A program made the translations under genes and the position numbers. A stretch of DNA of 64,000 bases from an uncultured Alphaproteobacteria bacterium (GTDB lineage Bacteria > Pseudomonadota > Alphaproteobacteria > JAJFIK01), in the NCBI GenBank assembly GCA_964561475.1, contig CAZLPU010000002.1:20707-84706 (forward strand). Direction: 5' to 3'. Positions within the stretch are counted from its first letter, which is position 1, and every line of letters begins with the position of its first letter. The notes beneath the pieces were generated by a model. The model worked only from the letters and a program-made list of their open reading frames with translations, had not been told where the DNA came from and searched no databases. Positions 1-56,213 of this stretch are shown here, in pieces.

Positions 1-517
1 TGATCCGTATGGCTTCCACACCGCCCGTGGAGGCCCCCACCAGGACGATGGTCTCCGTGGACCGGAACACGACCGGTGCGGCGGGCCCCGCCGGGCGGTT
101 GGTGGCCTTGGCCCTGACCCGGGCGCTGGCGGCCGACTTGACCTTCGCGCGGATTTCATCAGTTTGCGCTTTGATGCCCCGGGCCAAATCGCTGACCGGC
201 TTGGCGACCACATCCACCGCCCCGGCATCCAGGGCTTCCAGTGTGATATCTGCCCCCTGCTGAGTGAGGGAGGAGACCATCACCACGGGCATGGGCCGTA
301 ACGCCATGATTTTGCGCAGGAATGCCAGCCCGTCCATCCGGGGCATTTCTACGTCCAGGGTGATCACGTCGGGATTGAGGGCCTTGATCCGCTCCCGGGC
401 CTGGAAGGGATCCGCCGCCGTGCCCACCACCACTATGCCAGGATCTGTACTGAGCAGTTCACTCAAGAGCTGGCGCATCAGGGCGGAGTCGTCAACAATA
501 AGTACACGGATGGACAT
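1..517 (-). CDS. cheB: Chemotaxis response regulator protein-glutamate methylesterase CheB (5' part, runs off the window start)
   Basis: Not in the ORF track. My translation from ATG at 517 reads [18 protein letters not shown]...[16 protein letters not shown]...[12 protein letters not shown]...GAVDVVAKP, the CheB receiver domain. It follows cheD. Confidence 0.93.
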
Positions 518-552
518 GGCGATCCTCCCTTGAGATGGTTCAGAGCATGCAA

Positions 553-1269
553 TCAGGAGAAGAGTTCCACATCTCCGGCCAGGGGCTCCCTGGCAAGACG
601 GGAGGTGTAGCGCCCTTCCTCCTCCACATGCTCATGGGCGGCGCCAGACTTGATCAGCCGACGCATCACCCGGCCTTCAACGGGACAATAGTGAATGCGC
701 CGGGCATGGAGGCCGCCCAGATCCTCACCGGCCACCTTCAGACCTTCCGCCCGGAGATATTCCAGAACAAAAGCCGCATTGCGCAGACCAACTGTATTGG
801 TGCCCGTTGTCACCTGCCCGCCCCCGAAAACCTTGATTTCAAGCCGCTCCTTGGGGCATCCCCACCGGGTCACCTCATTGATCAGCCGTTCCATGGCAAA
901 GGTGCCGTAGCGCAGGGCCGAGAGATCGGTTCTGCTGCCGTCGGTCTGATCGGGGAGCATGAAATGGTTGAGGCCGCCAAAACCCGTGGCCGGGTCACGC
1001 ATGCAGGCGGCCACGCAGGACCCGAGAATGGTGACCACCATGTCCTGCGGATCCCCGGTCACGTAAAAGCCGCCGGGTAGGACCTTCACCATCCATCGGC
1101 CCATCTGACCATTGTGGAAGCGGTGAAAAAGCTCCCCCCGAGGAGCATGTCGGGCCGGACGCCCGTCTCTTTGGACTGCCGGCCCCTGTACTGTTGGCCC
1201 TTGGACTGGGGACCTTTGGACTGGGGTGCCTGGAGCTGGGGGCGTGTGATCTGCCGATGCCGGGCTCAT
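553..1269 (-). CDS. cheD: Chemoreceptor glutamine deamidase CheD
   Basis: [29 protein letters not shown] and C-terminal GDVELF motifs. The ATG at 1269 overlaps the cheR stop (TGATG). Confidence 0.93.
1171..1228 (-). repeat. Degenerate 15-bp tandem repeat in the cheD N-terminal extension
   Basis: Encodes [19 protein letters not shown]. Confidence 0.6.
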
Positions 1270-2195
1270 CAGCCAGCCACCTTGCGGTAGGTGGTCCGTC
1301 CACAAAGGGTCAAGGGCAGGCCCGCCAGGGCCACCGTTTCCGAATGACCAATATACAGATACCCTCCCGGGCGCAGAAACTCGGCCAGACGTGCCACAAG
1401 CGCCTGTTTGGTTTGCGTATCGAAGTAGATCATCACGTTACGGCAGAAAATCGCGTCGAACCATCCGGTCATGGGCCATCTCTCCAGAAGGTTCAACGGT
1501 TTGAAGGTAATCATGGAACGGACCTCGTCCCCTATGGCGATCTCCTCGCCTCCGGGAACGGGCCTTGTATAGGTCTGATAACAGCCAGGGATCTTCTCGA
1601 GACATTCCCGGGGATAGTGCCCCCGAGCCGCCACATCCAGAATGCGGGTGTTGATATCCGTGGCCAGGATCCGGCTATCCAGCAGTCCGGCCGCCTGGGA
1701 ATTTTCCGACATCATCTGTAGAAGGATGACGGCGATGGAATAGGGTTCCGCCCCGTCTGAGCAGGCCGCCGACCAGATCCGCAGTTTGCGCCCCGGTCTG
1801 CCCCCTCCCTGATGATCCGGTACACCCTGCTCCCGTACACCGTCCTTGATCATGGGGGAGAGGACATGTTGGGCCAGGTGATCCAGGTGGTGGCTCTCCC
1901 GGAAGAAGGCCGTATGGTTCGTCGTCAGACGATTGACCAGGGTTTCAACCTCGCCGCTCAACGGATCACCAAGCCGGGCCCGATAGGCGGCGAAACTGTC
2001 CAGACCCAGATGTCTCAGGCGACGGGCCAGACGGGCATAGACCAGATCCGCCTTCGAGCGGGTCAGGCTGATCCCCACCTTGGCGTAGAGGATTTCGGCA
2101 ATCGCTTCGAAATCCTCCACCGTGAAGGCAAATTCCCGTTCCCCGGACGGCCTTGTGGCGCGTGCCGGAACCGCTCTGGCACCGCCAGCCGCCAT
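1269..2195 (-). CDS. cheR: Chemotaxis protein methyltransferase CheR
   Basis: LTTNHTAFFRE, RIWSAACSDGAEPYS, ILATDI, FDAIFCRNVMIYF and GHSE motifs. Confidence 0.95.
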   Translation of the reverse strand: MAAGGARAVPARATRPSGEREFAFTVEDFEAIAEILYAKVGISLTRSKADLVYARLARRLRHLGLDSFAAYRARLGDPLSGEVETLVNRLTTNHTAFFRESHHLDHLAQHVLSPMIKDGVREQGVPDHQGGGRPGRKLRIWSAACSDGAEPYSIAVILLQMMSENSQAAGLLDSRILATDINTRILDVAARGHYPRECLEKIPGCYQTYTRPVPGGEEIAIGDEVRSMITFKPLNLLERWPMTGWFDAIFCRNVMIYFDTQTKQALVARLAEFLRPGGYLYIGHSETVALAGLPLTLCGRTTYRKVAG

Positions 2196-2197
2196 GC

Positions 2198-4819
2198 CTA
2201 GAATTCCTTCCAGTCCGGATCATCCTCAACCGCGACCGCAAGAGCGCTCTGCATGGCCCGGGCGGGACCGGGTCTGGTCCGCCGCTCCGGGTCCTGATCG
2301 ACCCTGGCCTGGATGGCCACGCCCCGGCCCCCATCCTCCCTGAACTGAGGGACGGCGGTCACCACACCGGTCTGTGACGCGGTGTCCAGGGTGAAAAAGT
2401 CCACCCGCTGCTGCATATTGATGGCCTGATCCCGCAGCGTCTTGGCCGCCGCGGCGTTTTCCTCCACGAGGGCGGAGTTCTGCTGGGTCATCTCATCCAT
2501 CTGGGTGACCGCACCACTGATCTCCTCCACCCCTGTCGCCTGTTCCCGGCTGGCCGCGGCAATCTCGGAGACGATATCGGTCACGTTCTTGATGGCCCCG
2601 ACGATCTGCTCCAGCGCTTCTCCGGTCCGGTTCACGAGGGAAACCCCATCAGCGACCTGATCCGTACTGTGAACGATCAGATCCTTGATGTCCTTTGCCG
2701 CCTGGCTGGAGCGCTGGGCCAGATTGCGCACTTCCGAGGCCACCACGGCGAAGCCGCGCCCCGCATCCCCCGCCCGGGCCGCCTCGACCGCGGCATTCAG
2801 GGCAAGGAGGTTGGTCTGGAAGGCAATCTCGTCAATCACCGTGGTGATCTCGGTGATCTTGGAAGACGAATGTTCAATATCTGACATGGCCCGGACGGCT
2901 TTGGAGACCACTTCGCCGCCGGCGGTCGCCGCGTCCCTGGCTCCAAGAGCCAGTTGGTTGGCCTGAACCGCACTTTCGGCATTGCGCTTGACCGTTGCGG
3001 AAATCTCGTCCATGGCCGCGGCGGTCTCTTCCAGGTTCGATGCTTGCTGCTCCGTACGCTGAGACAGATCGGCAGTTCCCGAAGAAATGTCCGCTGCCGC
3101 ATTGGAGACTTCCGTGGCGGCACTCTTGATCTGTCCGACAATTTCCGTCAGCTGCGCCGACATGGCATTTGTATTGATCTGAATCTGATCGAAAATGCCC
3201 TGGTAGCTCCCGTCCATGCGCCGGGTCAGGTCACCACCGGACAGGGAAGAAATCACGGAGACGAGGGAGTCCATGGCGGCACCGATCCGCTCACAGACAT
3301 CATTCATTGCGGACGCGAGGGAGAGCATGAACCCGGTCTTGCCCTCAAGGCTCACGCGCTTGGTGAAATCGCCGTTGGCGACCGCACCCACCACCATATC
3401 AATCTCCGCCTGGATCGAGCGTTCGGCGGTCTCGTCGCGCCATTCAACAACGGTGCCCAGCCTCTGGCCCTCCTCATCCCGGATAGGGCTTGCAATCAGC
3501 ACGAGAGACCGTCCGCCCAGGGAGAGTTCGATCTGGCGGGGAACGGTGAGGGTTTGGAGAATGTTGCGCTGATGGGCCGGGTTCTTGTGGAACAGATCGA
3601 TATTGCTGCCCATCATCGTGCGCGCGTCAAACTGGGGGAGGTCCTTGCGAATGTCCGACTCAGCCGTCTGCAACATCCTTTCCACTGCCGGATTCGAGTA
3701 GACGAGATTGTTGTCCTCGTCCGCAATCAGAACATTGGACGTGCAGGAATCGAGGGCGGCGCGGACACGGAGGTTTTCCCGCGCGAAGGCTTCCTGGCGC
3801 CGACGTTCGGCCATCTGTTCTGTGATGTTGTTTGCGAACTTCACCACCTTGACCGGCTTGCCGTCCTTATCCAGAATTGCATTATAGGAGGCCCGGAGCC
3901 AGACTTCCTGCCCATTCTTGTCGAACCGGGCATATTCGCCGGCATGGAAATCGCCTCGGCGCAAGGTTTCCCAGAAATCCCGATACTCCGAAGACCGCCC
4001 ATAATCGGGATCGACGAACATGGAGTGATGACGGCCGACAATCTCCTCGAGCCGGTAGCCGGTCACCGCGAGGAAGTTCTGGTTGACGGTGAGGATCGTG
4101 CCGTCCATATCAAACTCGATCATGGCCTGATCGCGGCTCAGTGCCTTGACGATCCCATCGGCCATATCCGTAAGAGGGGCAGCCTCATTCCGGGCGGGCG
4201 GGATTTTCCACTCCATGAGCACCCCGCCAGCCCGTCCGATGGCCGGATCAAGGGGGCTCAAGACCACATCCACGGTCTCGCCCCCGAGCGCAATCCGGGT
4301 CGTGTACGGGGTACGGAGCAGCTCAAGTGCCGTCCGGTCTTCCTGCGCCACCAGCAGACTCTCGAGCGGCATTCCCACCACCGTGTCGGCCCGCAGGCCC
4401 GGAAACACCCGTGCAATATCCGCGGACCGGTCGTGGAGAAACTGAACCATGGCATTGTTGGCATACACAACACGACCGGTTCCATCAGTAGTCAGAACAG
4501 GATCTGCACACTGATCGAGCGCGCGCAATGCCCGGTCAGAGCCTGCTGACTGCACACGCAATCGCTGGACGGGGGGCACAATGGCCACACATGCCGCTCC
4601 AATCGCTACAATCTGCATGAGGATGACAGGAAGCAGACCGACAAAGGGCTGTAAAGCGGTCAGAGTGGCCAGTGTGGTGGCAAGGACGGCACCGGTGGCC
4701 AGGAGACGGTGCAAAGACGTTATGCCCTGATGCCCATCGGCGCGTGCGCTTGGGCGTCCATGGCCGGCAACAACGGGTGATACGGCTGGAGTGCCGGAAA
4801 CAGTGTCTACTGATGACAT
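2198..4819 (-). CDS. Multi-PAS methyl-accepting chemotaxis protein (Aer2/McpB-like) with a C-terminal pentapeptide
   Basis: Three PAS-like segments including [17 protein letters not shown]-like segments, the MCP hairpin [20 protein letters not shown] and C-terminal DWKEF. Start chosen at ATG 4819. Confidence 0.92.
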
Positions 4820-4893
4820 GATGGTCTGCCTCTTGTCTTCATATATGCCAAAGACCGGCAGCGGGAAGGCCGCCGGAAACATCCCGGCTCTGA

Positions 4894-5484
4894 TCAGGTG
4901 GTCAATGGGCTGCCAAGTGTGGTGCCGGAGAGATGGTGGAGATCAAGAAGCGCGATCATCTGCTCATTCACGGTCACCAGACCGGAGAGATAATCCACGC
5001 CGACAAGTCCGCAGGTCTGGGGAACGGGCTGGAACCGCTCCGTATCCACTTGCAGAATGTCTGAAACCCGGTCGACGAGCAGTCCAACAAGGCGCTCTTC
5101 GATTTGTACGATGATCACCACATGGGTCGGTGTGGCATCGGTCAGGCCCTGGCCGAACTTGCAGCGCAGATCAATGATGGGCACCACCACGCCGCGCAGA
5201 TTGAGCACACCACGCACAAAGGTGGGCTGATTGGGCAACCGGGTAACTTCGGTCCAACCCTTGATCTCACGCACCGCGATTATATCGACGCAGTAGTATT
5301 CATCATCAATCGCGAAGCTGATGAACTGGGCGGCGGCATTGGCGTCGGAACGCGCAGGATCGGCCGTCCCCGTTTCATTGATTTGGGACCCACTGGTTCT
5401 CATCCCGCCAGCGCCCGAGCCCGCCGCCAGACCGGACTCTTGATCCGTTGACGGCTCGATAGTGACTGCCTCTGCCGCGTTCAT
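4894..5484 (-). CDS. cheW: Chemotaxis coupling protein CheW
   Basis: [23 protein letters not shown] and [10 protein letters not shown] motifs. Start overlaps the cheA stop (ATGA). Confidence 0.95.
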
Positions 5485-7610
5485 GCCGCGATTTCTCCCT
5501 GTTCTGACTGGCTCAAGGCAGATCCGTCCGCCTCCGCCATGCCGGCATCCTTGTCGTCGAACCATGACCCCGGCCCGGTTGGACCGGTGAGGTCTCCACC
5601 GTCACCGGATTGTCCGGACATACCGCTCAGTGCATCCACATCGATGATCAACGCCACCCGTCCGTCGCCCAGAATGGTGGCGCCGGAGATGCCTTCGATG
5701 CTGTGATAGTTCTCGTCCAGGCTCTTGATCACCACCTGCTGCTGGTTCAAGAGATCATCCACAACAAGCCCCACCTTGCGCCCCGATTCCGTCTCGACAA
5801 GGACAACCAGGGCATCCTGGGCATTCCCCGACGAGGCACCGGCCCCAAGTCTCTGGCGCAAATGGATCAGGGGGACGAATTCCCCCCGGTTGGAAAGCAC
5901 TTCCTGCCCCGCGCCCAATCGGCGCAAGTCCCGGCGCTGGGGCCGCACACATTCCAGAATACCGGTCAGGGGAAGGATGTAGCGTTCCGTCCCTACCATG
6001 ATCAGCATGCCGTCCAATACCGCGAGGGTCAGCGGCAGGGTGAGGATGAATTTGGTCCCCTTGCCCGGCAGGGTCTCAATGGCGATGCGCCCGCCCAGTG
6101 CCTGGATGTTACGGCGCACCACGTCCATGCCCACGCCCCGTCCGGAGATATCGCTCACCTCCCGGGCCGTGGAAAAGCCTGGAGCAAAGACAAGCTGGTC
6201 AATGTCTCCGGGCGCCATGGTTGCGGCACTGTCCGCGCTGATGAGACCACGTTCGACCGCACGGGTACTGACGGCCTCCCGGTCGATGCCCCTGCCGTCA
6301 TCGGCGACACAAATGACGATGCGCCCGCTGCGATGCTCAGCAGACAATTCAATGGTGCCGGTCTCGGGTTTGCCCGCGCCGACCCGATCCTCCGGCGTTT
6401 CCAGCCCGTGATCGAGGGCATTGCGGATCATATGGGTCAGGGGATCGCTCAATTCCTCGATGACCGTCTTGTCGACTTCCGTTTCCTCGCCCCTGGTCTT
6501 CAAGGTGACCTTTTTGCCCAACCGGTCGCTCAAGTCACGGACCACCCGGGGCATCCGGGAGAAGACGGACTTGACCGGCTGCATACGGATTGCCATGACG
6601 CTTTCCTGCAGCTCCCGGGTGCGCAGGGTCAGATCCTCAAGACCGCGCAATTGGGACAGATCACTGACCTGGGCTGTTTCGGAGATGTTCTGCAGGACCA
6701 TGGACTGGGCGATGACCAGCTCACCAACCATGTTCACGAGCCGGTCCAGGCGGACGAGATCCACACGGATGGATGAGGTTCTCGGCGCTCCGGTCTGGGA
6801 CAGGACAGCCTGATTGTCCTCGCCCGACAGTTCCGCATCTGCCGGCCTCTGTGGGGCGCTTGCGCCTTCTGGGGCGTTGCGTGGGGATCCGGGATCACGG
6901 TTGAGGGCTTCGACACTCAGATCACAATCATCGCTGACGAATTCGAAGACGGCCCGGATCTCGTCAAGACTGGCCTCGGTCTCAAGATCGATCCGCCAGC
7001 CCAGATAACAGATTTCCGGATCGAACCGATCGAGACCAGGAAGCCTGGAGAGATCCGGAGTGACTGACGCCTGCCCCAGGGCGCAAAGCTCAGCCAACAA
7101 ATTGAGAGGCTCATTGCCGAACCGCAGAAGCGTCTCACCGGGTTGGAAGATGACCCGCACCTTGCCCGCCGCCCCACCATGCTCTTCCGCTTCCGGAGCA
7201 ACGGGAGCCGTCTCCGGTCCGGTTTCCATCTCCTTGAGCCGGCCAAGTACCGCCCGCTCATGGTCGGGCGCGTAGTATTGTTCCCCCTGAGCGTCGGTCA
7301 CAAGATCGTGGAGCATGTCCACCGCGCGCACCAGAAGGCTGGTCAGATCTTCCGTGAGGATGATCTGCCTGGAGCGTACCTTTTCGAGAACCGCCTCGAA
7401 GCTGTGGGTGTAGGTGACCAGCCGGTCGAAGCCGAAAGCGCCCGCCCCCGCCTTGATGGAATGAACCGCACGGAAGATCGAGTTCAGCTTTTCCGTATCA
7501 CGCTCGTCCGGCTCGAGAGTCACCACATACCCGGCAAGCCCCTCGAGCAGTTCGGCGCATTCGTCGAAATAGGTCTGTTTCAGGTGCTCGAACTGTCCGG
7601 TCCGGTCCAT
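5481..7610 (-). CDS. cheA: Chemotaxis histidine kinase CheA
   Basis: Hpt motif FRAVHSIKAGAG, SIRVD, HMIRNALDHG, SGRGVGMDVV and a C-terminal CheW-like domain. Confidence 0.96.
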   Translation of the reverse strand: MDRTGQFEHLKQTYFDECAELLEGLAGYVVTLEPDERDTEKLNSIFRAVHSIKAGAGAFGFDRLVTYTHSFEAVLEKVRSRQIILTEDLTSLLVRAVDMLHDLVTDAQGEQYYAPDHERAVLGRLKEMETGPETAPVAPEAEEHGGAAGKVRVIFQPGETLLRFGNEPLNLLAELCALGQASVTPDLSRLPGLDRFDPEICYLGWRIDLETEASLDEIRAVFEFVSDDCDLSVEALNRDPGSPRNAPEGASAPQRPADAELSGEDNQAVLSQTGAPRTSSIRVDLVRLDRLVNMVGELVIAQSMVLQNISETAQVSDLSQLRGLEDLTLRTRELQESVMAIRMQPVKSVFSRMPRVVRDLSDRLGKKVTLKTRGEETEVDKTVIEELSDPLTHMIRNALDHGLETPEDRVGAGKPETGTIELSAEHRSGRIVICVADDGRGIDREAVSTRAVERGLISADSAATMAPGDIDQLVFAPGFSTAREVSDISGRGVGMDVVRRNIQALGGRIAIETLPGKGTKFILTLPLTLAVLDGMLIMVGTERYILPLTGILECVRPQRRDLRRLGAGQEVLSNRGEFVPLIHLRQRLGAGASSGNAQDALVVLVETESGRKVGLVVDDLLNQQQVVIKSLDENYHSIEGISGATILGDGRVALIIDVDALSGMSGQSGDGGDLTGPTGPGSWFDDKDAGMAEADGSALSQSEQGEIAA

Positions 7611-7670
7611 GACGGGGCCTTCCTCCAGTAGTATCGCATTCAGACCGGCGGCCGGTCCTGGCCGCAAACC

Positions 7671-49755: not shown

Positions 49756-52530
49756 TCAGGCAGCCTGGCCCAGCTTTTTGGTGGTGCCGCCGTCCGCAGA
49801 CGGAACCCGGCCGTGGTTCAGCAGGCCGTCCAGCACCTTGACCTGTTCCGGTTCCGGCAGGAATTCCACACGGACTTTTTCTCCGGTGCTGCCCAGGGCG
49901 ACTCCGGTCAGGTTCAGGACCGCTTCCTCAAGGGGCATTCTCACGGTGATGGTCTCCCCTTCATCGAACAGGGAAGATGTCTCCAGAAGGCAGCCGCCCG
50001 TGGACATGTCTTTCAGAACGGCATCGTGATCAATCCCGTCCACGCCGGAAACGGTGACATCCAGATTGAACGCCGTGCGTTCCGTCAGCCGCCTGGAACC
50101 GCTTTCCTCCACGAATTTCAGGAAGCCATTCAGTCGGTCGAGAAGCTCAGAATACTGTCTGTCGATATCTTCAGCCGCCTGACGCATGTGGCTGATTTCA
50201 CCTTCCACCTGTTCCATGGTGCCGCCCACCGTGGCAATCGCCTGGTTGACGTCCTGGGTTTCCTGGGCGGCCCGCTCCACGGACTGGGCGACATCGGACA
50301 CGACGGTCTGCTGCTCACGGACGGTCTCGTTGATGTCCATGGCATTGCGGGTGGACACCCGGACCGAGCGCGAGATTTCCTCCGCGGACTCATAGACACG
50401 CTGATTGGAGGTCTGGATGCCCTCTACGGTCTCCCGGATCTGCCGGGTCATGCGCTCGGTCTCCTTGGCCAGGGTCTTGACCTCCGAGGCCACCACGGCG
50501 AACCCGCTTCCGGCGGCGCCGGCCCGGGAGGCCTCGATCGTGGCGTTCAAGGCAAGAAGGTTGGTCTCGACCGCCACATCCTCGATACTGTCCACCACGG
50601 AGCCGATGGCCTCGCTCAGAGTTTTCAGTTCACGGACCGTCGAGCGGGTGTTCTCCACCCCTTCCGCTGTTTCCTCGAAACTGCGGGCAGACGAATCAAC
50701 CCGTGTGGTGAGGTCGACAATGGAAGCAGACAGTTCCGTGCTTGCCCCAGCCACGGCGGTGATCTGTTCCAGGCCCGCCGTGGAGCGCTTGACGGCTTCC
50801 GTCGCCAGGGATTTGGCCTCCTTCGAGGCCGCCTCCACATGCCCGATCCGCTCACCGAGCTTTTCATTCGCCTGAAGAAGGGTCTGCATCATCGGGGTAA
50901 TGACAGACTGAAAGGTGTTGATCTCGTTCAGGACCGCTTCCCGGTGGATGTCCCTGGCCCGCTGGCGCTCGGAGAGCAGCATGCGTTCGGCCTCCACCCG
51001 GTCCATGAGCCGGTTGATCAGGGTGGCGATATCGCTCACCTCATCACCGGGATCGACCCGGATCCGCCCCATGGCACTGCCCTTCCGGTCCAGGAGGGTC
51101 ACCACCGCTTCCTTGACCACGCCCATGCCGAAGATTGTTCCGTGTTCGGCGGCATTAAGGCCCAGTTCCTCGTCCTCCCGGGGCACCCGCAGACCGCTGC
51201 CCCCGTCCGGGTTACCGGCCAGCACCCGGTCCGCGACCCGCAGACACAGATACGCAACGCCAAACGCCCAAGCGAACACGATGGCGGCACCGGCGCACTG
51301 AACACCGATCTGCGCCACCCGGGACCCGGCCGCGAGGGAGTCAGGGGAGGCAAAGACGCCGACCATGATCGTGCCCCACACACCGGCAATGCCGTGGACG
51401 GAGATGGCTTCGAGAGGGTCGTCGATCTTGAATTTCTGCTCCAGAAACCGTGCACCGGCAAAACCGATGGCACCGGCGGTGCCGCCAATCACCAGGGCCG
51501 CCCCTGAGCCCACATCATTACAGCCCGCCGTGATGCCCACGAGACCCGCCAGAACGCCGTTGATCGCGTGATCCGGCCGGAAAATGCCCGCATGCATCCG
51601 TCCAATGACCATTTGCACCGTACCGCCTGCCGCACCGGCGATCACCGTGTTCATGATGATATGGGCAAAGACTTCCGTCCCCACAGTGGTGGAACCGCCG
51701 TTGAAACCGATCCAGCCAATCCACAGGATCACACCGCCCGCGGTCGCCAGAACCGGATTGTGACCCTGGAGATGCTGGGGCTGGCCATTCTCGTCGAACT
51801 TATCCGTGCGCGGCCCGATAACCAGAACCGCTGCAAGGGCCACCCAGGCGCCGACCGAGTGCACGACCGTGGAGCCCGCGAAATCCATGAACCCCCAGTC
51901 GGCGAGAAACCCCTGGCCCTCTCCGCCCAGGGCACCGCCCCAGATCCAATGCCCGGACACCGGATAGATCAAGCCGCTGATCATGACCACACAGATAATG
52001 TAGCCGGTCAGGCGCATGCGTTCTGCCACCGCGCCGGACAGAATGGTGGCCGCGGTCCCGCAGAACACGAGCTGAAAGACGAAGAATGTGTAGGTCCACG
52101 GCTCATTACCGCCGAAAAAGGCCAAGTCGGTGCTGAAGCCGATCAGGCCACCCTGGCTGGCGCCGAACATGAGGGTGAAGCCGACGGCACCGAAAATCAG
52201 GGTGGACAGGATGAAGTCAATCAGGTTCTTCTGGGCGACATTGATGGAGTTCTTTGAGCGGACGGTTCCTGCTTCCAACAGCAGAAAGCCCACCTGCATG
52301 AAGAAGACCAGGGCAGCGGCGATGGTGGTCCAGACAAAATCCACACTGCGCTGGAGGGCAAAAAGGTCCGTTTCGGAGACGGATGCCCAGGCCTGGCCTG
52401 GAAAAAGCGCGAAAAGTGCCGCGACGATGGAAAAGACGACGGACCATCGTGCTCCGCTGACACACCGCTGCGCCCACTGACCATGCGATCGCGAACCAGA
52501 GTTGAATTCGTCCATCACAAGCGCAGACAT
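49756..52530 (-). CDS. Ammonium transporter (Amt) fused to HAMP, MCP signalling and PilZ domains
   Basis: Amt motifs [33 protein letters not shown] and [14 protein letters not shown] hairpin [17 protein letters not shown]. PilZ motifs RLTER and DMSTGG. Confidence 0.93.
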
Positions 52531-52700
52531 TCACCGCCCCCTCTTTCTTGCCGATATACTTTGCAATCCGGCCACGCACGGCCGATCCCACCCCGATGAG
52601 CCGCGGCGGGGCCATCGGGACGTTCAGAGGCGAACCTTGCAAAGTGTGGTGAAAGAGCGATGAACGCACAGGGGACCCGTGAGACGTTTTCCGCCCCCGC

Positions 52701-53573: not shown

Positions 53574-54476
53574 CTACTTCTCCAGCCGCGCGATCAGACT
53601 GGACGTGTCCCAGCGGCCGCCGCCCATACGCTGAACATCTGCATAGAACTGATCCACCAGGGCGGTCAGGGGCAGGCGTGCGCCATTGCGCCGGGCCTCC
53701 GCGAGGCAAATGCCCAGATCCTTGCGCATCCAGTCCACGGCGAAACCGAAATCGAACTTGTCCTCGTCCATGGTCGCCGCGCGGTTTTCCATCTGCCAGG
53801 ACTGGGCGGCCCCTTTCGAGATCACATCCACCACCTCGCCCACGGGCAGACCGGCGGCCTTGGCGAAATGAAGCCCTTCCGCCAGGCCCTGGACAACACC
53901 GGCAATACAGATCTGATTAACCATTTTGGTAAGCTGGCCCGAGCCCGCCGGGCCGATCAGTCTGGCCATGCGGGCATAACAGTCGATCATGGGACGGACA
54001 GCCTCGAATGCCCCGGCCTCACCGCCGGCCATGACCGTCAGGGTGCCCCCTTCAGCCCCGGCCTGGCCGCCGGACACGGGCGCATCCAGGGCCTGAAGAC
54101 CCCGGGCGCGGGCTTCCCGGTCCAGGTCCCGGGCCAGATCCGCCGAGGCCGTGGTGTGGTCCACGAAAACACTCCCCGCCTCCATGGCTTCGAACGCCCC
54201 GTCCGGACCAAGCGCCACGGCGCGCACATCATTGTCCGCTCCGACACAGGCAAAAACCGCGCTTGCACCGCTGACGGCCTCTTTCGGCGTGGACGCGGTT
54301 CGGCCCCCATACTCCGCCTGCCAGCGTGCCGCCTTCTCCGCAGTGCGGTTATAGACCGTGACCTCATGTCCGGCCCGGGCCAAATGCCCTGCCATGGGGT
54401 AGCCCATGACGCCAAGGCCCAGGAAAGCCACCTTCGCCGCTGCGTCCTTGCCCCGTAATTGTTGTCCGTCTGCCAT
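53574..54476 (-). CDS. NAD(P)-dependent oxidoreductase, 3-hydroxyisobutyrate dehydrogenase family
   Basis: FLGLGVMGYPMA, YNRT, DAPVSGG and KMVNQ motifs. Real start is ATG 54476 with an AAGGA RBS. Confidence 0.93.
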   Translation of the reverse strand: MADGQQLRGKDAAAKVAFLGLGVMGYPMAGHLARAGHEVTVYNRTAEKAARWQAEYGGRTASTPKEAVSGASAVFACVGADNDVRAVALGPDGAFEAMEAGSVFVDHTTASADLARDLDREARARGLQALDAPVSGGQAGAEGGTLTVMAGGEAGAFEAVRPMIDCYARMARLIGPAGSGQLTKMVNQICIAGVVQGLAEGLHFAKAAGLPVGEVVDVISKGAAQSWQMENRAATMDEDKFDFGFAVDWMRKDLGICLAEARRNGARLPLTALVDQFYADVQRMGGGRWDTSSLIARLEK

Positions 54477-54689
54477 GGTCCGTTCCTTTACCAGAATGCC
54501 TGTCTGTTCCCGGACCCGCTGCCTGCAACCTGTCACGGGCAGGCGGCCTAGGTCCTGGAGGATGATAAACCCAGGATTAATCCCTGCCGCCCAAATTTGC
54601 ATCGAGCAACGTTTGCACTGAGTGGGTTTTGCCGGAGCAGGTTCACGCAAGCCGGAAACACGAAAGTCGGAACTGGGAGCCTTGCGCAA

Positions 54690-56213
54690 ATGGCATTGGA
54701 CATAATCCGGCGCGTCCGGACGCTGGTCCGTCTGACACGTCTCCGGCAAACACTCCCGGCCTGGTTCGGATCTTTGGGTTTCCGGTTTCTTCATCCCAGA
54801 CCCGGCGTGGGGAGAAACACGGACGCGACCGACTCCCCCACCAGCTCCCCGACCGGCTCCCCCGGCGACTACTCTCGAACCTCCGAGGACAGGCCGAACC
54901 CGGAAGATATGCCCCCGGAACATGACGAACAGGGGCAGCCCGGTGATGTGGCCGACCTGAAGCAGATCATTCTGCTGGTCGAAATGCAGATGAAGTCGGC
55001 CATTTCCAGCGTCGGGGATTGCGCTGAAAGCATCATCGCCGCTGCCGACCAGATGGCCGCCGACTCCGAGGTCGCCCAACACAATTCCGGCGATCTTGCC
55101 CAGAACGCAGCCCAGGTCCGGGAAACGGTGATCAGCGCCGCCAATGCGGCAACGGATGTTCGCGGTTCCTTTCAAGACCTGGCCGGGCGCACCACCCAGG
55201 CCGCCCGGATTGCCGCAGAGGCCGCCCAGTCCGGCTCCCATGCCCGGAAAACCATCCAGGATCTGACCCAGTCCATGGACCGGATCGGCACGGTCAGCGC
55301 GATGATCCGGACCATCGCGGATCAGACCAATCTGCTCGCCCTCAATGCCACCATCGAGGCGGCCAGAGCCGGAGACGCGGGCAAGGGCTTTGCCGTCGTC
55401 GCAGCCGAGGTCAAGGAACTGGCCCGGCAGACCGCCGCGTCCACGGAAGAAATTTCCACCCTGGTGAACGCCATCCAGTCGGCGACCCGGGAAGTGGTGG
55501 ATGCCTTTTCCGCCATGACCGGCAGTGTCGAGCGCATTTCCGGCATTTCCGCCGGGATCGCGGAAACCATGGACCGGCAGGCGGAAACCACCCAATTGAT
55601 TTCCAAACAGATTAACGGAACCGCGTCGGCCATTGATACCATGTCGTCTCTTGTCGGTGACGTGGCCGCGGACGCCAAGGCCAGCGGTCAGCAGGCGGAC
55701 ACCGTGCGGCAGGGGTCCATAACGGTGCTGAACCGGCTCAACACGGTGAAAGAAGATCTGGTCCGCATTGTGCGCCATTCCGCCACGCCCATGGACCGGC
55801 GCCGGCTTGGACGGATCACGATCAGTGGAGACACCACCCTGGCCTCGATAATTGGCACACTCCAGGTTCTCACAGAGCGCGGCAGTTTCCCGGCGGTCCT
55901 CGTCGACATCTCGCCGTCAGGTGCACGGATCGAGCGATTCCACAGTCTTGTCGAGGGCGATCAGGGACACCTCGTCTTTGCGGACCACGAACTCGAACTG
56001 GCTTTCAAGGTTGTGGAAAGCAGCTTCGACAAGACGCGGATGTCCTTCGATTTGTCCGACCGGGATGGGGACGCTCTGGGGATCTTGATCGGCGCCTTGC
56101 AGGATGCGCAATCACGGGACGGTCAGGGCACTCCCGATCAAAAACCGACGTCCAGCGCGCCGGCCACCCCGTCGTCGGATACAAGCGATCAGGACACAGA
56201 TCTCTGGCTGTAG
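54690..56213 (+). CDS. Soluble methyl-accepting chemotaxis protein with a C-terminal PilZ domain
   Basis: [20 protein letters not shown] hairpin; PilZ motifs RRLGR and DISPSG; no TM segment. Start uncertain (54690 or 54909). Confidence 0.85.

What the first reader, a model, noticed from the sequence alone, without database searches (positions are those of the whole stretch)
49756..52530. Four-module ammonium chemoreceptor: Amt-HAMP-MCP-PilZ in one polypeptide
Seen: one 924-aa ORF with a complete Amt domain that keeps the twin-His pair ([15 protein letters not shown]), Phe gate ([13 protein letters not shown]) and Trp (HWIW). It continues into a HAMP-like segment ([18 protein letters not shown]), an MCP hairpin and a PilZ domain with both c-di-GMP motifs (RxxxR = RLTER, DxSxxG = DMSTGG). 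Known: Amt domains have been repurposed as ammonium sensors when fused to histidine kinase or diguanylate cyclase outputs, and PilZ-bearing chemoreceptors occur in Azospirillum. Inference: this receptor couples ammonium binding or transport to CheA and is tuned by c-di-GMP. I know of no characterised protein with all four modules.
Basis: partly seen in the sequence, partly recalled or inferred. Interest (0 to 1): 0.85.

Follow-up and report, generated by a model that had tools for sequence, protein, structure and literature searches.

The report
Ammonium-sensor chemoreceptor with c-di-GMP domain
One real 924-residue gene joins an ammonium-transporter-like membrane sensor, of the kind already shown to act as an ammonium receptor, to a chemotaxis receptor and a c-di-GMP-binding domain, so it probably lets the bacterium steer in ammonium gradients, although nobody has tested such a protein.

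Summary
Window 49756-52530, on the minus strand, is one uninterrupted 924-aa ORF. Pfam finds Ammonium_transp (66-465), MCPsignal (617-775) and PilZ (813-896), all above the curated cut-offs. Between Amt and MCP lies a helix-loop-helix that looks like HAMP but scores below Pfam's threshold.

Contigs from three samples of one study bridge both domain junctions without differences, so the fusion is not a misassembly.

The Amt module carries the complete N1/N2 ammonium-receptor signature published for Sd-Amt1 and Ks-Amt5. These two sensors are its closest solved relatives (about 305 bits, against 150-163 for transporters). The genome also has a separate glnK-amtB pair, two che clusters, flagellins and 12 GGDEF proteins.

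The most likely function is an ammonium-sensing chemoreceptor whose output is modulated by c-di-GMP. This is inferred and was not tested.

Amt-MCP fusions are common, mostly in Alphaproteobacteria among the named records: 157 of the 159 proteins listed carry both domains. My searches found no paper that describes them. The PilZ-bearing form is rare: about 18 protein clusters, and no ortholog in four genomes of the same genus.

I rate it a new variant of known kinds (sensor Amt, PilZ chemoreceptor). Interest 0.6.

The parts
49756..52530 (-). Whole gene: 924 codons plus the stop. Encodes the Amt / HAMP-like / MCP / PilZ protein (P0001).
52537..52543 (-). Shine-Dalgarno-like GAGGGGG, 6 nt upstream of the ATG at 52530.
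   Evidence: Read from the sequence. No sigma-70-like promoter was found by the consensus scan.
52384..52530 (-). Residues 1-49: N-terminal extension plus a hydrophobic helix ending in AWA. This is a probable signal peptide, judged by eye, which would put the Amt N-terminus outside the cell.
   Evidence: Translation. Helix 20-41 with low pLDDT. No signal-peptide predictor was run.
51136..52335 (-). Residues 66-465: Amt/Rh membrane module with 11 predicted helices. The pore residues W197, S280, F156, F276, H224 and H379 are intact.
52036..52296 (-). Residues 79-165: complete N1/N2 ammonium-receptor signature Q79-x6-E86-x15-N102-x2-D105-F106-x55-T162-x2-S165.
   Evidence: The signature comes from PMC11152129. 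The regex matched. Residues correspond one to one with Sd-Amt1 Q22, E29, N45, D48, F49, T104 and S107.
50956..51129 (-). Residues 468-525: HAMP-like helix / connector / helix, containing [18 protein letters not shown].
   Evidence: Secondary structure. Invariant G495, E497 and N506. Sub-threshold Pfam HAMP hits occur at the homologous place in 5 of the 8 closest relatives scanned. This protein itself gives no Pfam HAMP hit.
50098..50937 (-). Residues 532-811: long helical hairpin of the chemoreceptor signalling domain, with the tip near A672. Pfam MCPsignal covers 617-775. Methylation-consensus matches lie at 585-592 and 770-777.
49813..50094 (-). Residues 813-906: PilZ beta-barrel plus a C-terminal helix, with RxxxR (R814, R818) and DxSxxG (D841, S843, G846).
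49759..49812 (-). Residues 907-924: predicted disordered tail ending in -QAA.
   Evidence: pLDDT below 50. 47 of the 120 homologues end in -AA.

Best explanation
The gene encodes a chemoreceptor whose sensor is an ammonium-receptor (AmR) type Amt module rather than a periplasmic ligand-binding domain.

Proposed mechanism, all of it inferred:
1. NH4+ enters the Amt pore from outside. It passes the Trp/Ser vestibule, the Phe gate and the twin His, and is diverted into the lateral N1/N2 pocket formed by Q79, E86, N102, D105, T162 and S165.
2. Occupancy of the pocket changes the conformation of the membrane module.
3. The change is passed through the cytoplasmic C-terminal linker and a divergent HAMP-like helix-loop-helix to a hairpin of about 40 heptads.
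4. The hairpin tip controls a CheA/CheW complex. The likely partner is the flagellum-linked cheA-cheW-cheY-cheB-cheR cluster on contig C49.
5. Two methylation-type sites allow CheR/CheB adaptation.
6. The C-terminal PilZ domain binds c-di-GMP and biases or adapts the receptor output, as shown for the PilZ chemoreceptors Tlp1 and Cbp1.

The cell's ammonium uptake is probably left to the separate glnK-amtB pair.

Shown here: the architecture, the motifs, the folds, the presence of the partner systems, and that the fusion is real. Inferred: ammonium binding, lack of transport, coupling to CheA, c-di-GMP binding, and the sign of each response.
For: Architecture.
- Three Pfam domains above the curated cut-offs lie in one open frame.
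- The AF2 model has mean pLDDT 83.7. Amt is above 90, PilZ about 90 and the hairpin 64-83.

Sensor class.
- The published AmR signature Q-x6-E-x15-N-x2-D-[FT]-x54-60-T-x2-[ST] (PMC11152129, passage seen) matches at residues 79-165. It does not match in the genome's other two Amts.
- The best solved relatives by sequence are Sd-Amt1 (8qj3, 305.9 bits) and Ks-Amt5 (6eu6, 304.2 bits). Af-Amt1 scores 163 and E. coli AmtB about 150. The PDB codes were tied to these proteins.
- By fold, 6eu6 has TM 0.95 at 41% identity and Sd-Amt1 TM 0.94 at 42-43% identity. The transporters are 30-32% identical.
- The ligand positions Q79, E86, N102 and D105 are conserved in 107 of 108 aligned Amt-MCP proteins. T162, S165 and N324 are conserved in 108 of 108.

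Division of labour.
- A P-II gene lies directly upstream of the canonical Amt on contig C24.

Output.
- The hairpin tip matches the family consensus, with N662, A663, E666 and F677 invariant.
- There are two matches to the methylation consensus.
- The genome has 13 MCPsignal hits, two CheA/CheW clusters, CheR, CheB, CheD and 3 flagellins.
- The protein aligns with no net gap over 156-241 residues to 5 of the 12 other MCPs of the genome.

PilZ.
- The motifs are intact and invariant in 14 of 14 rows.
- A separate model (pLDDT 81) finds PilZ domains as its top Foldseek hits, most of them solved with c-di-GMP bound: BcsA, Alg44, 4xrn, MapZ, YcgR, PlzA and VCA0042.
- The genome has 12 GGDEF proteins.
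- PilZ on chemoreceptors binds c-di-GMP and alters taxis in Tlp1 (PMC3604760, abstract seen) and Cbp1 (PMC6454048, abstract seen).

The gene is real.
- Contigs from three samples bridge both junctions.
- The same four-module order occurs at 41-46% identity in independent assemblies.
Against: - There are no functional data of any kind, and no RNA run was listed.
- Pfam does not recognise a HAMP domain in this protein. In relatives the hits are below the gathering score, 18-21 bits against 25.
- All pore residues needed for transport are also intact. PMC11152129 states that some proteins with N1/N2 residues (plant AMT1s) do transport. So 'sensor, not transporter' is not settled.
- Two tip positions differ from the family majority: A672 where 54 of 108 have E, and S675 where 78 of 108 have K or R. 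This could weaken array contacts.
- The hairpin is modelled with only moderate confidence.
- The PilZ part gives no significant sequence match to any solved PilZ.
- Amt modules are trimers, whereas HAMP and MCP modules work as dimers. How one feeds the other is unresolved, also for Sd-Amt1.
- No che or nitrogen-regulation gene is adjacent.
- The gene is missing from all 4 genomes of the same genus and all 7 further genomes of the same family that were searched, so it is dispensable for that group.
Confidence: 0.62

Rival explanations
1. Transceptor. The Amt module still conducts ammonium, and the receptor reports flux or transport cycles rather than occupancy of a dead-end binding site. It might even contribute to uptake.
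For: The Trp/Ser pair, the Phe gate and the twin His are all intact and invariant in the family. PMC11152129 places transporting plant AMT1 proteins in the same N1/N2 cluster and suggests dual function (passage). N324, the counterpart of the exit-narrowing Asn-269 of Sd-Amt1, also occurs in the genome's canonical Amt (read from the translation), so it does not discriminate.
Against: The two characterised fused relatives, which are by far its closest solved homologues, mainly bind rather than transport. The genome has a separate glnK-amtB pair for uptake.
Confidence: 0.2
2. The receptor feeds a chemosensory pathway that does not control flagella. One candidate is the CheA-CheW-PAS-MCP-CheR-CheD cluster at window 553-7667. 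It would then regulate something else, such as surface behaviour or c-di-GMP-linked lifestyle, in response to ammonium.
For: There are two che clusters in the genome, one of them 42 kb away in the same window. The PilZ domain links the protein to lifestyle signalling. 4 of the 13 MCPs carry PilZ.
Against: The MCP encoded in the window's che cluster differs in arm length: 211 against 169 aligned residues. Five orphan MCPs align with no net gap. The C49 cluster lies next to a fliI-like ATPase and encodes no MCP of its own, which fits a role as hub for orphan receptors. Receptor class was judged by length only.
Confidence: 0.13
3. The C-terminal domain is a PilZ fold that no longer binds c-di-GMP. 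It would act only as a structural or protein-docking cap, leaving a plain ammonium chemoreceptor.
For: Some clade members have lost the motifs: P0002 and P0018 lack RxxxR in the alignment. Pfam recognises PilZ in only 14 of 55 clade members. Non-binding PilZ domains are known (bioRxiv 2020.02.11.943704; only the start of the abstract and one passage were seen).
Against: In this protein both motifs are intact. The fold matches c-di-GMP-bound PilZ structures.
Confidence: 0.08
4. Assembly chimera or frameshift artefact that joins separate genes.
For: The genome is a metagenome-assembled genome of 166 contigs. No genome of the same genus has the gene. The gene sits at a synteny break.
Against: Contigs from three samples bridge both junctions with no differences. 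The same domain order occurs in independent assemblies. The GC content equals that of the flanks.
Confidence: 0.02

Closest known systems
Sd-Amt1 of Shewanella denitrificans (Amt-HAMP-GGDEF ammonium receptor; PDB 8QJ3, 8QJ4, 8QPF; PMC11152129)
   Same: It has an Amt module with the full N1/N2 site, followed by a helical HAMP-type linker and a cytoplasmic transducer that works as a dimer. It is the best sequence match among solved structures (305.9 bits), with fold TM 0.94 at 42-43% identity.
   Different: The output is a chemoreceptor hairpin plus PilZ instead of a diguanylate cyclase. So this protein would read c-di-GMP rather than make it. Only the Amt part (query residues 66-464) aligns.
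Ks-Amt5 of 'Candidatus Kuenenia stuttgartiensis' (Amt-histidine kinase; PDB 6EU6; PMC5764959)
   Same: It is a sensor Amt with the N1/N2 site. It scores 304.2 bits, with fold TM 0.95 at 41% identity.
   Different: The kinase is fused directly, without a HAMP domain (passage seen). There is no chemoreceptor and no PilZ.
PilZ-bearing chemoreceptors: Tlp1 and Aer of Azospirillum brasilense, Cbp1 of Azorhizobium caulinodans (PMC3604760, PMC6406031, PMC6454048)
   Same: An MCP signalling domain is followed by a C-terminal PilZ with an RxxxR motif. In those proteins c-di-GMP binding alters taxis (abstracts seen; PMC6406031 seen only as a search listing).
   Different: Their sensors are not Amt modules. 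I had none of their sequences, so relatedness was not measured.
Uncharacterised Amt-MCP fusions annotated 'ammonium transporter' or 'methyl-accepting chemotaxis protein'. Examples: Terasakiella pusilla, Rhodospira trueperi, Roseospirillum parvum, Tritonibacter mobilis, Thioclava sp. SK-1, Hwanghaeella grinnelliae, Azospirillum spp.
   Same: They have the same Amt/HAMP-like/MCP order at 40-47% overall identity. The N1/N2 ligands are conserved in 107-108 of 108 aligned proteins.
   Different: Most lack PilZ. In the list, 11 of 120 carry a precomputed PilZ hit and 15 of 120 carry the motif pair. The forms of about 950 aa have extra HAMP and HAMP_2 units instead.

Membership tests
Amt/Rh family (PF00909, TIGR00836) | Profile match over the whole 11-helix module, above the curated cut-offs | tested here: met
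   Pfam gives 360 bits against a cut-off of 23.2 over profile positions 1-396 of 399. TIGR00836 gives 375.4 bits against 343.3. Eleven helices are predicted between residues 53 and 438.
Amt/Rh family (PF00909, TIGR00836) | Pore residues: Trp/Ser vestibule, Phe gate, twin His | tested here: met
   W197/S280, F156/F276 and H224/H379 align with Sd-Amt1 W139/S225, F98/F221 and H169/H323 (residue roles).
Ammonium receptors (AmR, sensor Amt; PMC11152129) | N1/N2 signature Q-x6-E-x15-N-x2-D-[FT]-x54-60-T-x2-[ST] | tested here: met
   The regex matches at residues 79-165. The other two Amts of the genome do not match.
Ammonium receptors (AmR, sensor Amt; PMC11152129) | Closer to characterised sensors than to transporters | tested here: met
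   About 305 bits to Sd-Amt1 and Ks-Amt5, against 150-163 to Af-Amt1 and AmtB. Foldseek gives the same order.
Ammonium receptors (AmR, sensor Amt; PMC11152129) | Binds NH4+ without net transport; NH4+ changes the transducer's activity | not testable with these tools
   Needs electrophysiology and biochemistry.
HAMP domain (PF00672) | Sequence profile match | tested here: not met
   No hit at E<=1 for this protein. Five of the 8 closest relatives scanned give sub-threshold hits (18-21 bits, cut-off 25) at the homologous place. HAMP is found at E<=0.01 in 35 of 55 clade members, but partly at a second, later HAMP.
HAMP domain (PF00672) | Helix / connector / helix of about 50 residues, directly after the last membrane helix and before the output helix | tested here: met
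   H468-481, loop 482-496, H497-525 at pLDDT 72-87. The motif G-D-E-x3-(I/L)-x4-(F/I)-N is conserved. Formation of a dimeric four-helix bundle was not tested.
Methyl-accepting chemotaxis proteins (PF00015) | Signalling-domain profile and conserved hairpin tip | tested here: met
   97.2 bits against a cut-off of 34.6. It matches the solved receptors TM1143 and Tsr at E 1e-14 to 1e-16. N662, A663, E666 and F677 are invariant.
Methyl-accepting chemotaxis proteins (PF00015) | Methylation sites and adaptation enzymes | tested here: inconclusive
   Two matches to [ASTG]xx[EQ][EQ]xx[ASTG], at 585 and 770. The consensus itself is recalled, not taken from a call. The aligned columns are not conserved in the family. 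CheR, CheB and CheD are present in the genome.
Methyl-accepting chemotaxis proteins (PF00015) | Heptad class, and hence partner pathway | tested here: inconclusive
   The arms are about 140 residues each, roughly 40 heptads, judged by length only. No class-specific models were on hand.
PilZ c-di-GMP receptors (PF07238) | Profile match plus the RxxxR and [DN]xSxxG motifs | tested here: met
   34.3 bits against a cut-off of 22.5. R814, R818, S843 and G846 are invariant in 14 of 14 rows.
PilZ c-di-GMP receptors (PF07238) | Six-stranded beta-barrel fold | tested here: met
   The model of residues 801-924 has pLDDT 81. All 31 Foldseek matches at E<=0.001 that are listed are PilZ domains, with TM to target up to 0.84.
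PilZ c-di-GMP receptors (PF07238) | Binds c-di-GMP | not testable with these tools
   Needs ITC or dialysis.

The most novel reading that the evidence does not exclude
Amt-MCP proteins are the dedicated bacterial chemoreceptors for ammonium, a receptor class that has not been described. A trimeric, transporter-derived 11-helix sensor has to drive signalling hairpins that work as dimers and pack as trimers of dimers. These receptors would therefore either leave one hairpin in three unpaired or cross-link neighbouring Amt trimers into a lattice, giving a chemoreceptor array geometry unlike the canonical one. In the rare PilZ subgroup, to which this gene belongs, ammonium taxis is additionally gated by the cell's c-di-GMP level.
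Probability: 0.3. Interest if true: 0.8.

Novelty: new variant of a known kind. Interest (0 to 1): 0.6.

Why it matters
Ammonium is a central nitrogen currency in microbial mats, sediments and the sea. None of my eight literature searches on the topic found a bacterial receptor for ammonium taxis. The last one returned mostly algae, animals and other eukaryotes, and no bacterial ammonium receptor.

Sensor Amts are so far characterised with only two outputs, a histidine kinase and a diguanylate cyclase. A chemoreceptor output would be a third. It would link the well-resolved N1/N2 binding site to a fast behavioural read-out that is easy to assay.

The family is large and occurs in culturable marine and phototrophic Alphaproteobacteria, so the idea can be tested directly. 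It also poses a clear structural question: how does a trimeric sensor talk to a dimeric receptor in a hexagonal array? The PilZ-bearing subgroup adds a second input, tying nitrogen foraging to the motile-sessile decision.

Tried and rejected
- Misassembly: rejected (and the homologues with the same domain order).
- Recent fusion with a paralogous MCP-PilZ of the same genome: rejected. The cytoplasmic part is only 29-38% identical to the 12 other MCPs of the genome, with one 48% match over 89 residues to a short fragment (C76). The alignments that extend furthest, up to 396 residues, are with the family members P0002 and P0003.
- Sigma-54 control: by eye the upstream TGG...TGC has the wrong spacing for a -24/-12 promoter. 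The sigma-70 scan found no site. Regulation remains unknown.
- Compositional sign of transfer: none. GC is 0.61-0.645 in the gene and 0.60-0.69 in the flanks.
- PilZ by sequence against solved structures: nothing significant. The fold comparison was used instead.
- Expression: no RNA holder was listed among the 4 runs found. This says nothing either way.
- Heptad class: alignments to Tsr and TM1143 show uneven gaps, so no class was assigned.
It was repeated on the 55-row clade.
- Complex prediction and the search of protein representatives were not used. A homodimer of an MCP hairpin would pass by likeness to solved receptors and would not settle the trimer-dimer question.
- Literature: eight searches found no paper on an Amt-chemoreceptor fusion. 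Neither sensor-Amt paper contains the words chemotaxis, MCP, methyl-accepting, chemoreceptor or PilZ. Subscription journals and supplements were not searchable.
Only the run label 'stromatolite metagenome' is known.
Full report
**What is there**

The stretch 49756-52530 is a single ATG-started ORF of 924 codons on the minus strand. It translates without a stop (kept as P0001). A GAGGGGG Shine-Dalgarno lies 6 nt before the ATG.

Pfam finds three domains above their curated cut-offs:
- Ammonium_transp at 66-465 (E 1.7e-107).
- MCPsignal at 617-775 (97.2 bits, cut-off 34.6).
- PilZ at 813-896 (34.3 bits, cut-off 22.5).

NCBIfam's 'amt' subfamily model is also passed.

An AlphaFold2 model built on 108 homologues has mean pLDDT 83.7. 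From the N-terminus it shows:
- an N-terminal hydrophobic helix;
- eleven membrane helices (pLDDT above 90);
- a short helix 468-481, a loop 482-496 and a helix 497-525;
- a low-confidence hinge;
- one long helical hairpin at 532-811 (pLDDT 64-83);
- a six-stranded barrel with a closing helix at 819-906 (pLDDT about 90);
- a disordered tail.

The protein is real, and its order is Amt, HAMP-like linker, MCP, PilZ.

**Is the fusion an artefact?**

No. Four DNA runs of one study, labelled stromatolite metagenome, hold the stretch. In three of them, separately assembled contigs cross both domain junctions with no differing letter and no indel:
- The Amt/linker junction (about 51138-50973) is crossed by X1 record 2, X2 record 8 and X3 record 18.
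- The MCP/PilZ junction (about 50094) is crossed by X1 record 2, X2 record 6 and X3 record 15.

X1 may be the source of the assembly, and all runs are one campaign, so this support is moderately independent. Stronger support comes from elsewhere: the same domain order is found at 41-46% identity in proteins from unrelated assemblies.

**The sensor is of the ammonium-receptor type**

Pfluger et al. 2024 (PMC11152129; I read the introduction and passages) describe two 'sensor Amts':
- Ks-Amt5 is an Amt fused to a histidine kinase.
- Sd-Amt1 is an Amt joined through a HAMP domain to a diguanylate cyclase.

In both, ammonium that has passed the twin-His pair is diverted into a lateral two-ion pocket called N1/N2. 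The paper proposes the signature Q-x6-E-x15-N-x2-D-[F/T]-x54-60-T-x2-[S/T].

P0001 matches this signature exactly at residues 79-165. The genome's two other Amts do not:
- The one on contig C24 fails at several positions.
- The one on C42 misses only by having Met after the Asp.

In the HMMER alignment to Sd-Amt1 the residues correspond one to one. Q79 corresponds to Q22, F82 to F25, E86 to E29, N102 to N45, D105 to D48, F106 to F49, T162 to T104, S165 to S107 and N324 to N269.

Among all solved structures, Sd-Amt1 (305.9 bits) and Ks-Amt5 (304.2 bits) are far ahead of the transporters Af-Amt1 (163) and E. coli AmtB (about 150). The PDB codes were tied to these proteins. Foldseek on the model gives the same order.

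Conservation across 108 aligned Amt-MCP proteins:
- Q79, E86, N102 and D105 are conserved in 107 of 108. The remaining row has a gap.
- T162, S165 and N324 are conserved in 108 of 108.
- Position 106 is F or T in 94, and M or L in 13. This largely accounts for the strict pattern matching only 93 of 120 homologues.

The pore residues for selectivity are also invariant, so transport cannot be excluded from sequence. The paper itself notes that plant AMT1 transporters share the N1/N2 residues.

**The linker**

Pfam reports no HAMP in P0001, even at E<=1. The segment nevertheless has the shape of one. It also carries the family-invariant G495, E497 and N506 within G-D-E-x-x-(D/E)-(I/L)-x-x-(L/A)-(F/I)-N.

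In 5 of the 8 closest relatives scanned individually (the other two rows, P0022 and P0044, are forms of about 950 aa), Pfam HAMP gives sub-threshold hits (18-21 bits, cut-off 25) exactly there, right after the Amt module. I therefore call it HAMP-like. The sequence criterion is not met, and the predicted secondary-structure criterion is met.

**The output**

The hairpin tip carries the chemoreceptor consensus, and N662, A663, E666 and F677 are invariant. Two tip positions, A672 and S675, are minority variants in the family.

The MCP part matches the solved receptors TM1143 and Tsr at E 1e-14 to 1e-16. The two arms are about 140 residues each, roughly 40 heptads by length. I could not assign a class. 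Two matches to the methylation consensus lie at 585 and 770. Both the consensus and the comparison with the Tsr sites are recalled, not taken from a call.

The genome can use such a receptor. It holds:
- 13 MCPsignal hits;
- a CheA, CheW, PAS-MCP, CheR, CheD, receiver cluster at window 2-7667;
- a second cluster on contig C49 with CheA-REC, CheW, CheY, CheB and CheR, next to a FliI-type ATPase and without an MCP of its own;
- three flagellins.

P0001 aligns with no net gap over 156-241 residues with five orphan MCPs of the genome. The MCP of the window's che cluster needs about 42 extra residues. I therefore infer, weakly, that P0001 signals with the orphan receptors through the C49 cluster.

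**PilZ**

RRLTER and DMSTGG give the two c-di-GMP motifs. R814, R818, S843 and G846 are invariant in the 14-row alignment of PilZ-bearing relatives.

Sequence search against solved structures found nothing significant. A separate model of residues 801-924 (pLDDT 81) retrieves PilZ domains as its best Foldseek matches, most of them solved with c-di-GMP bound: BcsA, Alg44, MapZ, YcgR, PlzA and VCA0042.

The genome encodes 12 GGDEF proteins. Four of its 13 MCPs end in PilZ, one of them only 2 kb away at 54597-56213.

C-terminal PilZ domains on chemoreceptors bind c-di-GMP and change taxis in two studied cases:
- A. brasilense Tlp1 (PMC3604760, abstract seen). The authors liken the effect to methylation-based adaptation.
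- A. caulinodans Cbp1 (PMC6454048, abstract seen).

**Division of labour**

A P-II gene sits directly upstream of the canonical Amt on C24. This is the usual glnK-amtB pair, so uptake does not depend on the fused protein.

**Distribution**

- Of the best 120 homologues among 5.8 billion proteins, 118 carry Amt plus MCPsignal and 2 carry Amt plus a histidine kinase.
- A profile search added 39 more proteins, all Amt plus MCP.
- By HMMs I built from alignment A1, 41 of the 82 Amt-bearing ORFs in those loci have an MCP part. 23 have the HAMP-like part with another output, and 18 have the Amt part only or with other extensions.
- Named carriers include Terasakiella, Rhodospira trueperi, Roseospirillum parvum, Azospirillum spp., Pelagibius, Hwanghaeella, Tritonibacter, Jannaschia, Thioclava and Rhodovulum. 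MAGs labelled Granulosicoccus, Micavibrio and Bradymonadia also carry it.
- The ESM Atlas lists two Amt plus MCPsignal clusters, of 90 and 99 members.

The four-module form is rare:
- 11 of 120 have a precomputed PilZ hit.
- 15 of 120 have both motifs.
- 1 of 82 ORFs in species genomes has it, in a Methyloligellaceae MAG (L010).
- The profile search found no member beyond the 18 already aligned. Scores drop from 1166 or more to 1068 and below.

On a FastTree of the N-terminal 540 residues, P0001 and P0003 branch at the base of a clade of forms about 950 aa long that carry extra HAMP units. The other 13 PilZ forms cluster elsewhere, so the PilZ label needs at least 4 changes on starred branches. 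This is a quick tree, and I draw no direction of gain or loss from it.

None of the 4 genomes of the same genus, or the 7 further genomes of the same family, has an ortholog. Their best matches cover only the Amt part, at 39-44% identity. Next to the conserved QueF, enoyl-CoA hydratase and YkuD-like block, all four congeners continue differently. I examined 13 kb in two of them and about 1.9 kb in the other two. GC content is not deviant. The gene is thus an accessory gene at a synteny break. Whether it was gained or lost is undecided.

**What remains open**

- Nothing here shows binding, signalling or expression.
- The main mechanistic puzzle is symmetry. Amt modules are trimers, and HAMP and MCP units are dimers. 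For Sd-Amt1 the authors propose that two of three HAMPs pair, and they consider pairing between trimers unlikely because the linker is short. For a receptor that must also enter trimers of dimers, the question is sharper.

**Literature**

Eight full-text searches found no paper on an Amt-chemoreceptor fusion or a bacterial ammonium chemoreceptor. The two sensor-Amt papers contain none of the words chemotaxis, MCP, methyl-accepting, chemoreceptor or PilZ. The two PilZ surveys mention MCP fusions but not Amt. Supplements were closed. Fig. 7B and Data S1 of PMC11152129 may list fused architectures that I could not see.

**Verdict**

The protein is a new variant that combines two known kinds, the sensor Amt and the PilZ chemoreceptor. 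It belongs to a large Amt-MCP family that my searches found described in no paper. Interest 0.6.

Noticed in passing
window 54597-56213 (+): A second chemoreceptor with a C-terminal PilZ (538 aa; MCPsignal 109.8 bits, PilZ 23.7 bits) lies 2 kb upstream of the finding. In the whole genome, 4 of the 13 MCPsignal hits are followed by PilZ.
   Followed up: partly
window 2-7667 (-): A chemosensory operon: CheA (5481-7667), CheW (4894-5565), a PAS-HAMP_2-MCP (2198-4882), CheR (1269-2195), CheD (553-1305) and a receiver domain that runs off the window (2-517). Its MCP has longer arms than the finding.
   Followed up: partly
P0001 residues 923-924 (window 49759-49764) and homologues P0002-P0120: 47 of the 120 Amt-MCP homologues end in -AA, in both the PilZ forms and the forms of about 950 aa. 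Another set ends in [YF]K[TIV], for example KYKI, QFKT and AFKV. These may be C-terminal recognition tags, for instance for a protease or an adaptation enzyme. This is speculation and was not tested.
   Followed up: no
own genome, contig C42:7686-9107 (-) (locus L003): A stand-alone 474-aa Amt with a nearly complete N1/N2 signature (Q, E, N, D, T and S are present, with Met instead of F/T after the Asp) and a C-terminal extension of about 60 residues. It could be a second, unfused sensor-type Amt.
   Followed up: no
window 53574-55778 (-): The 734-aa ORF listed here is over-extended. Only its C-terminal part of about 290 residues (about 53574-54440) matches 3-hydroxyisobutyrate-dehydrogenase-type NAD-binding domains. 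The rest overlaps the MCP-PilZ gene on the other strand.
   Followed up: partly
window 49700 onward, compared with L098-L101: Synteny with the four genomes of the same genus (QueF, enoyl-CoA hydratase, YkuD-like) ends exactly where the finding begins. The TetR, dehydrogenase, MCP-PilZ and penicillin-amidase genes that follow it are not next to that block in the congeners.
   Followed up: partly
loci L050-L087 (genome contigs): Many Planctomycetota, Nitrospinota, Verrucomicrobiota and Desulfobacterota genomes encode Amt or Amt-HAMP-like modules fused to long C-terminal parts other than MCP, with ORFs of 700-1350 aa. Most carry the strict N1/N2 signature. I did not identify their outputs.
   Followed up: no
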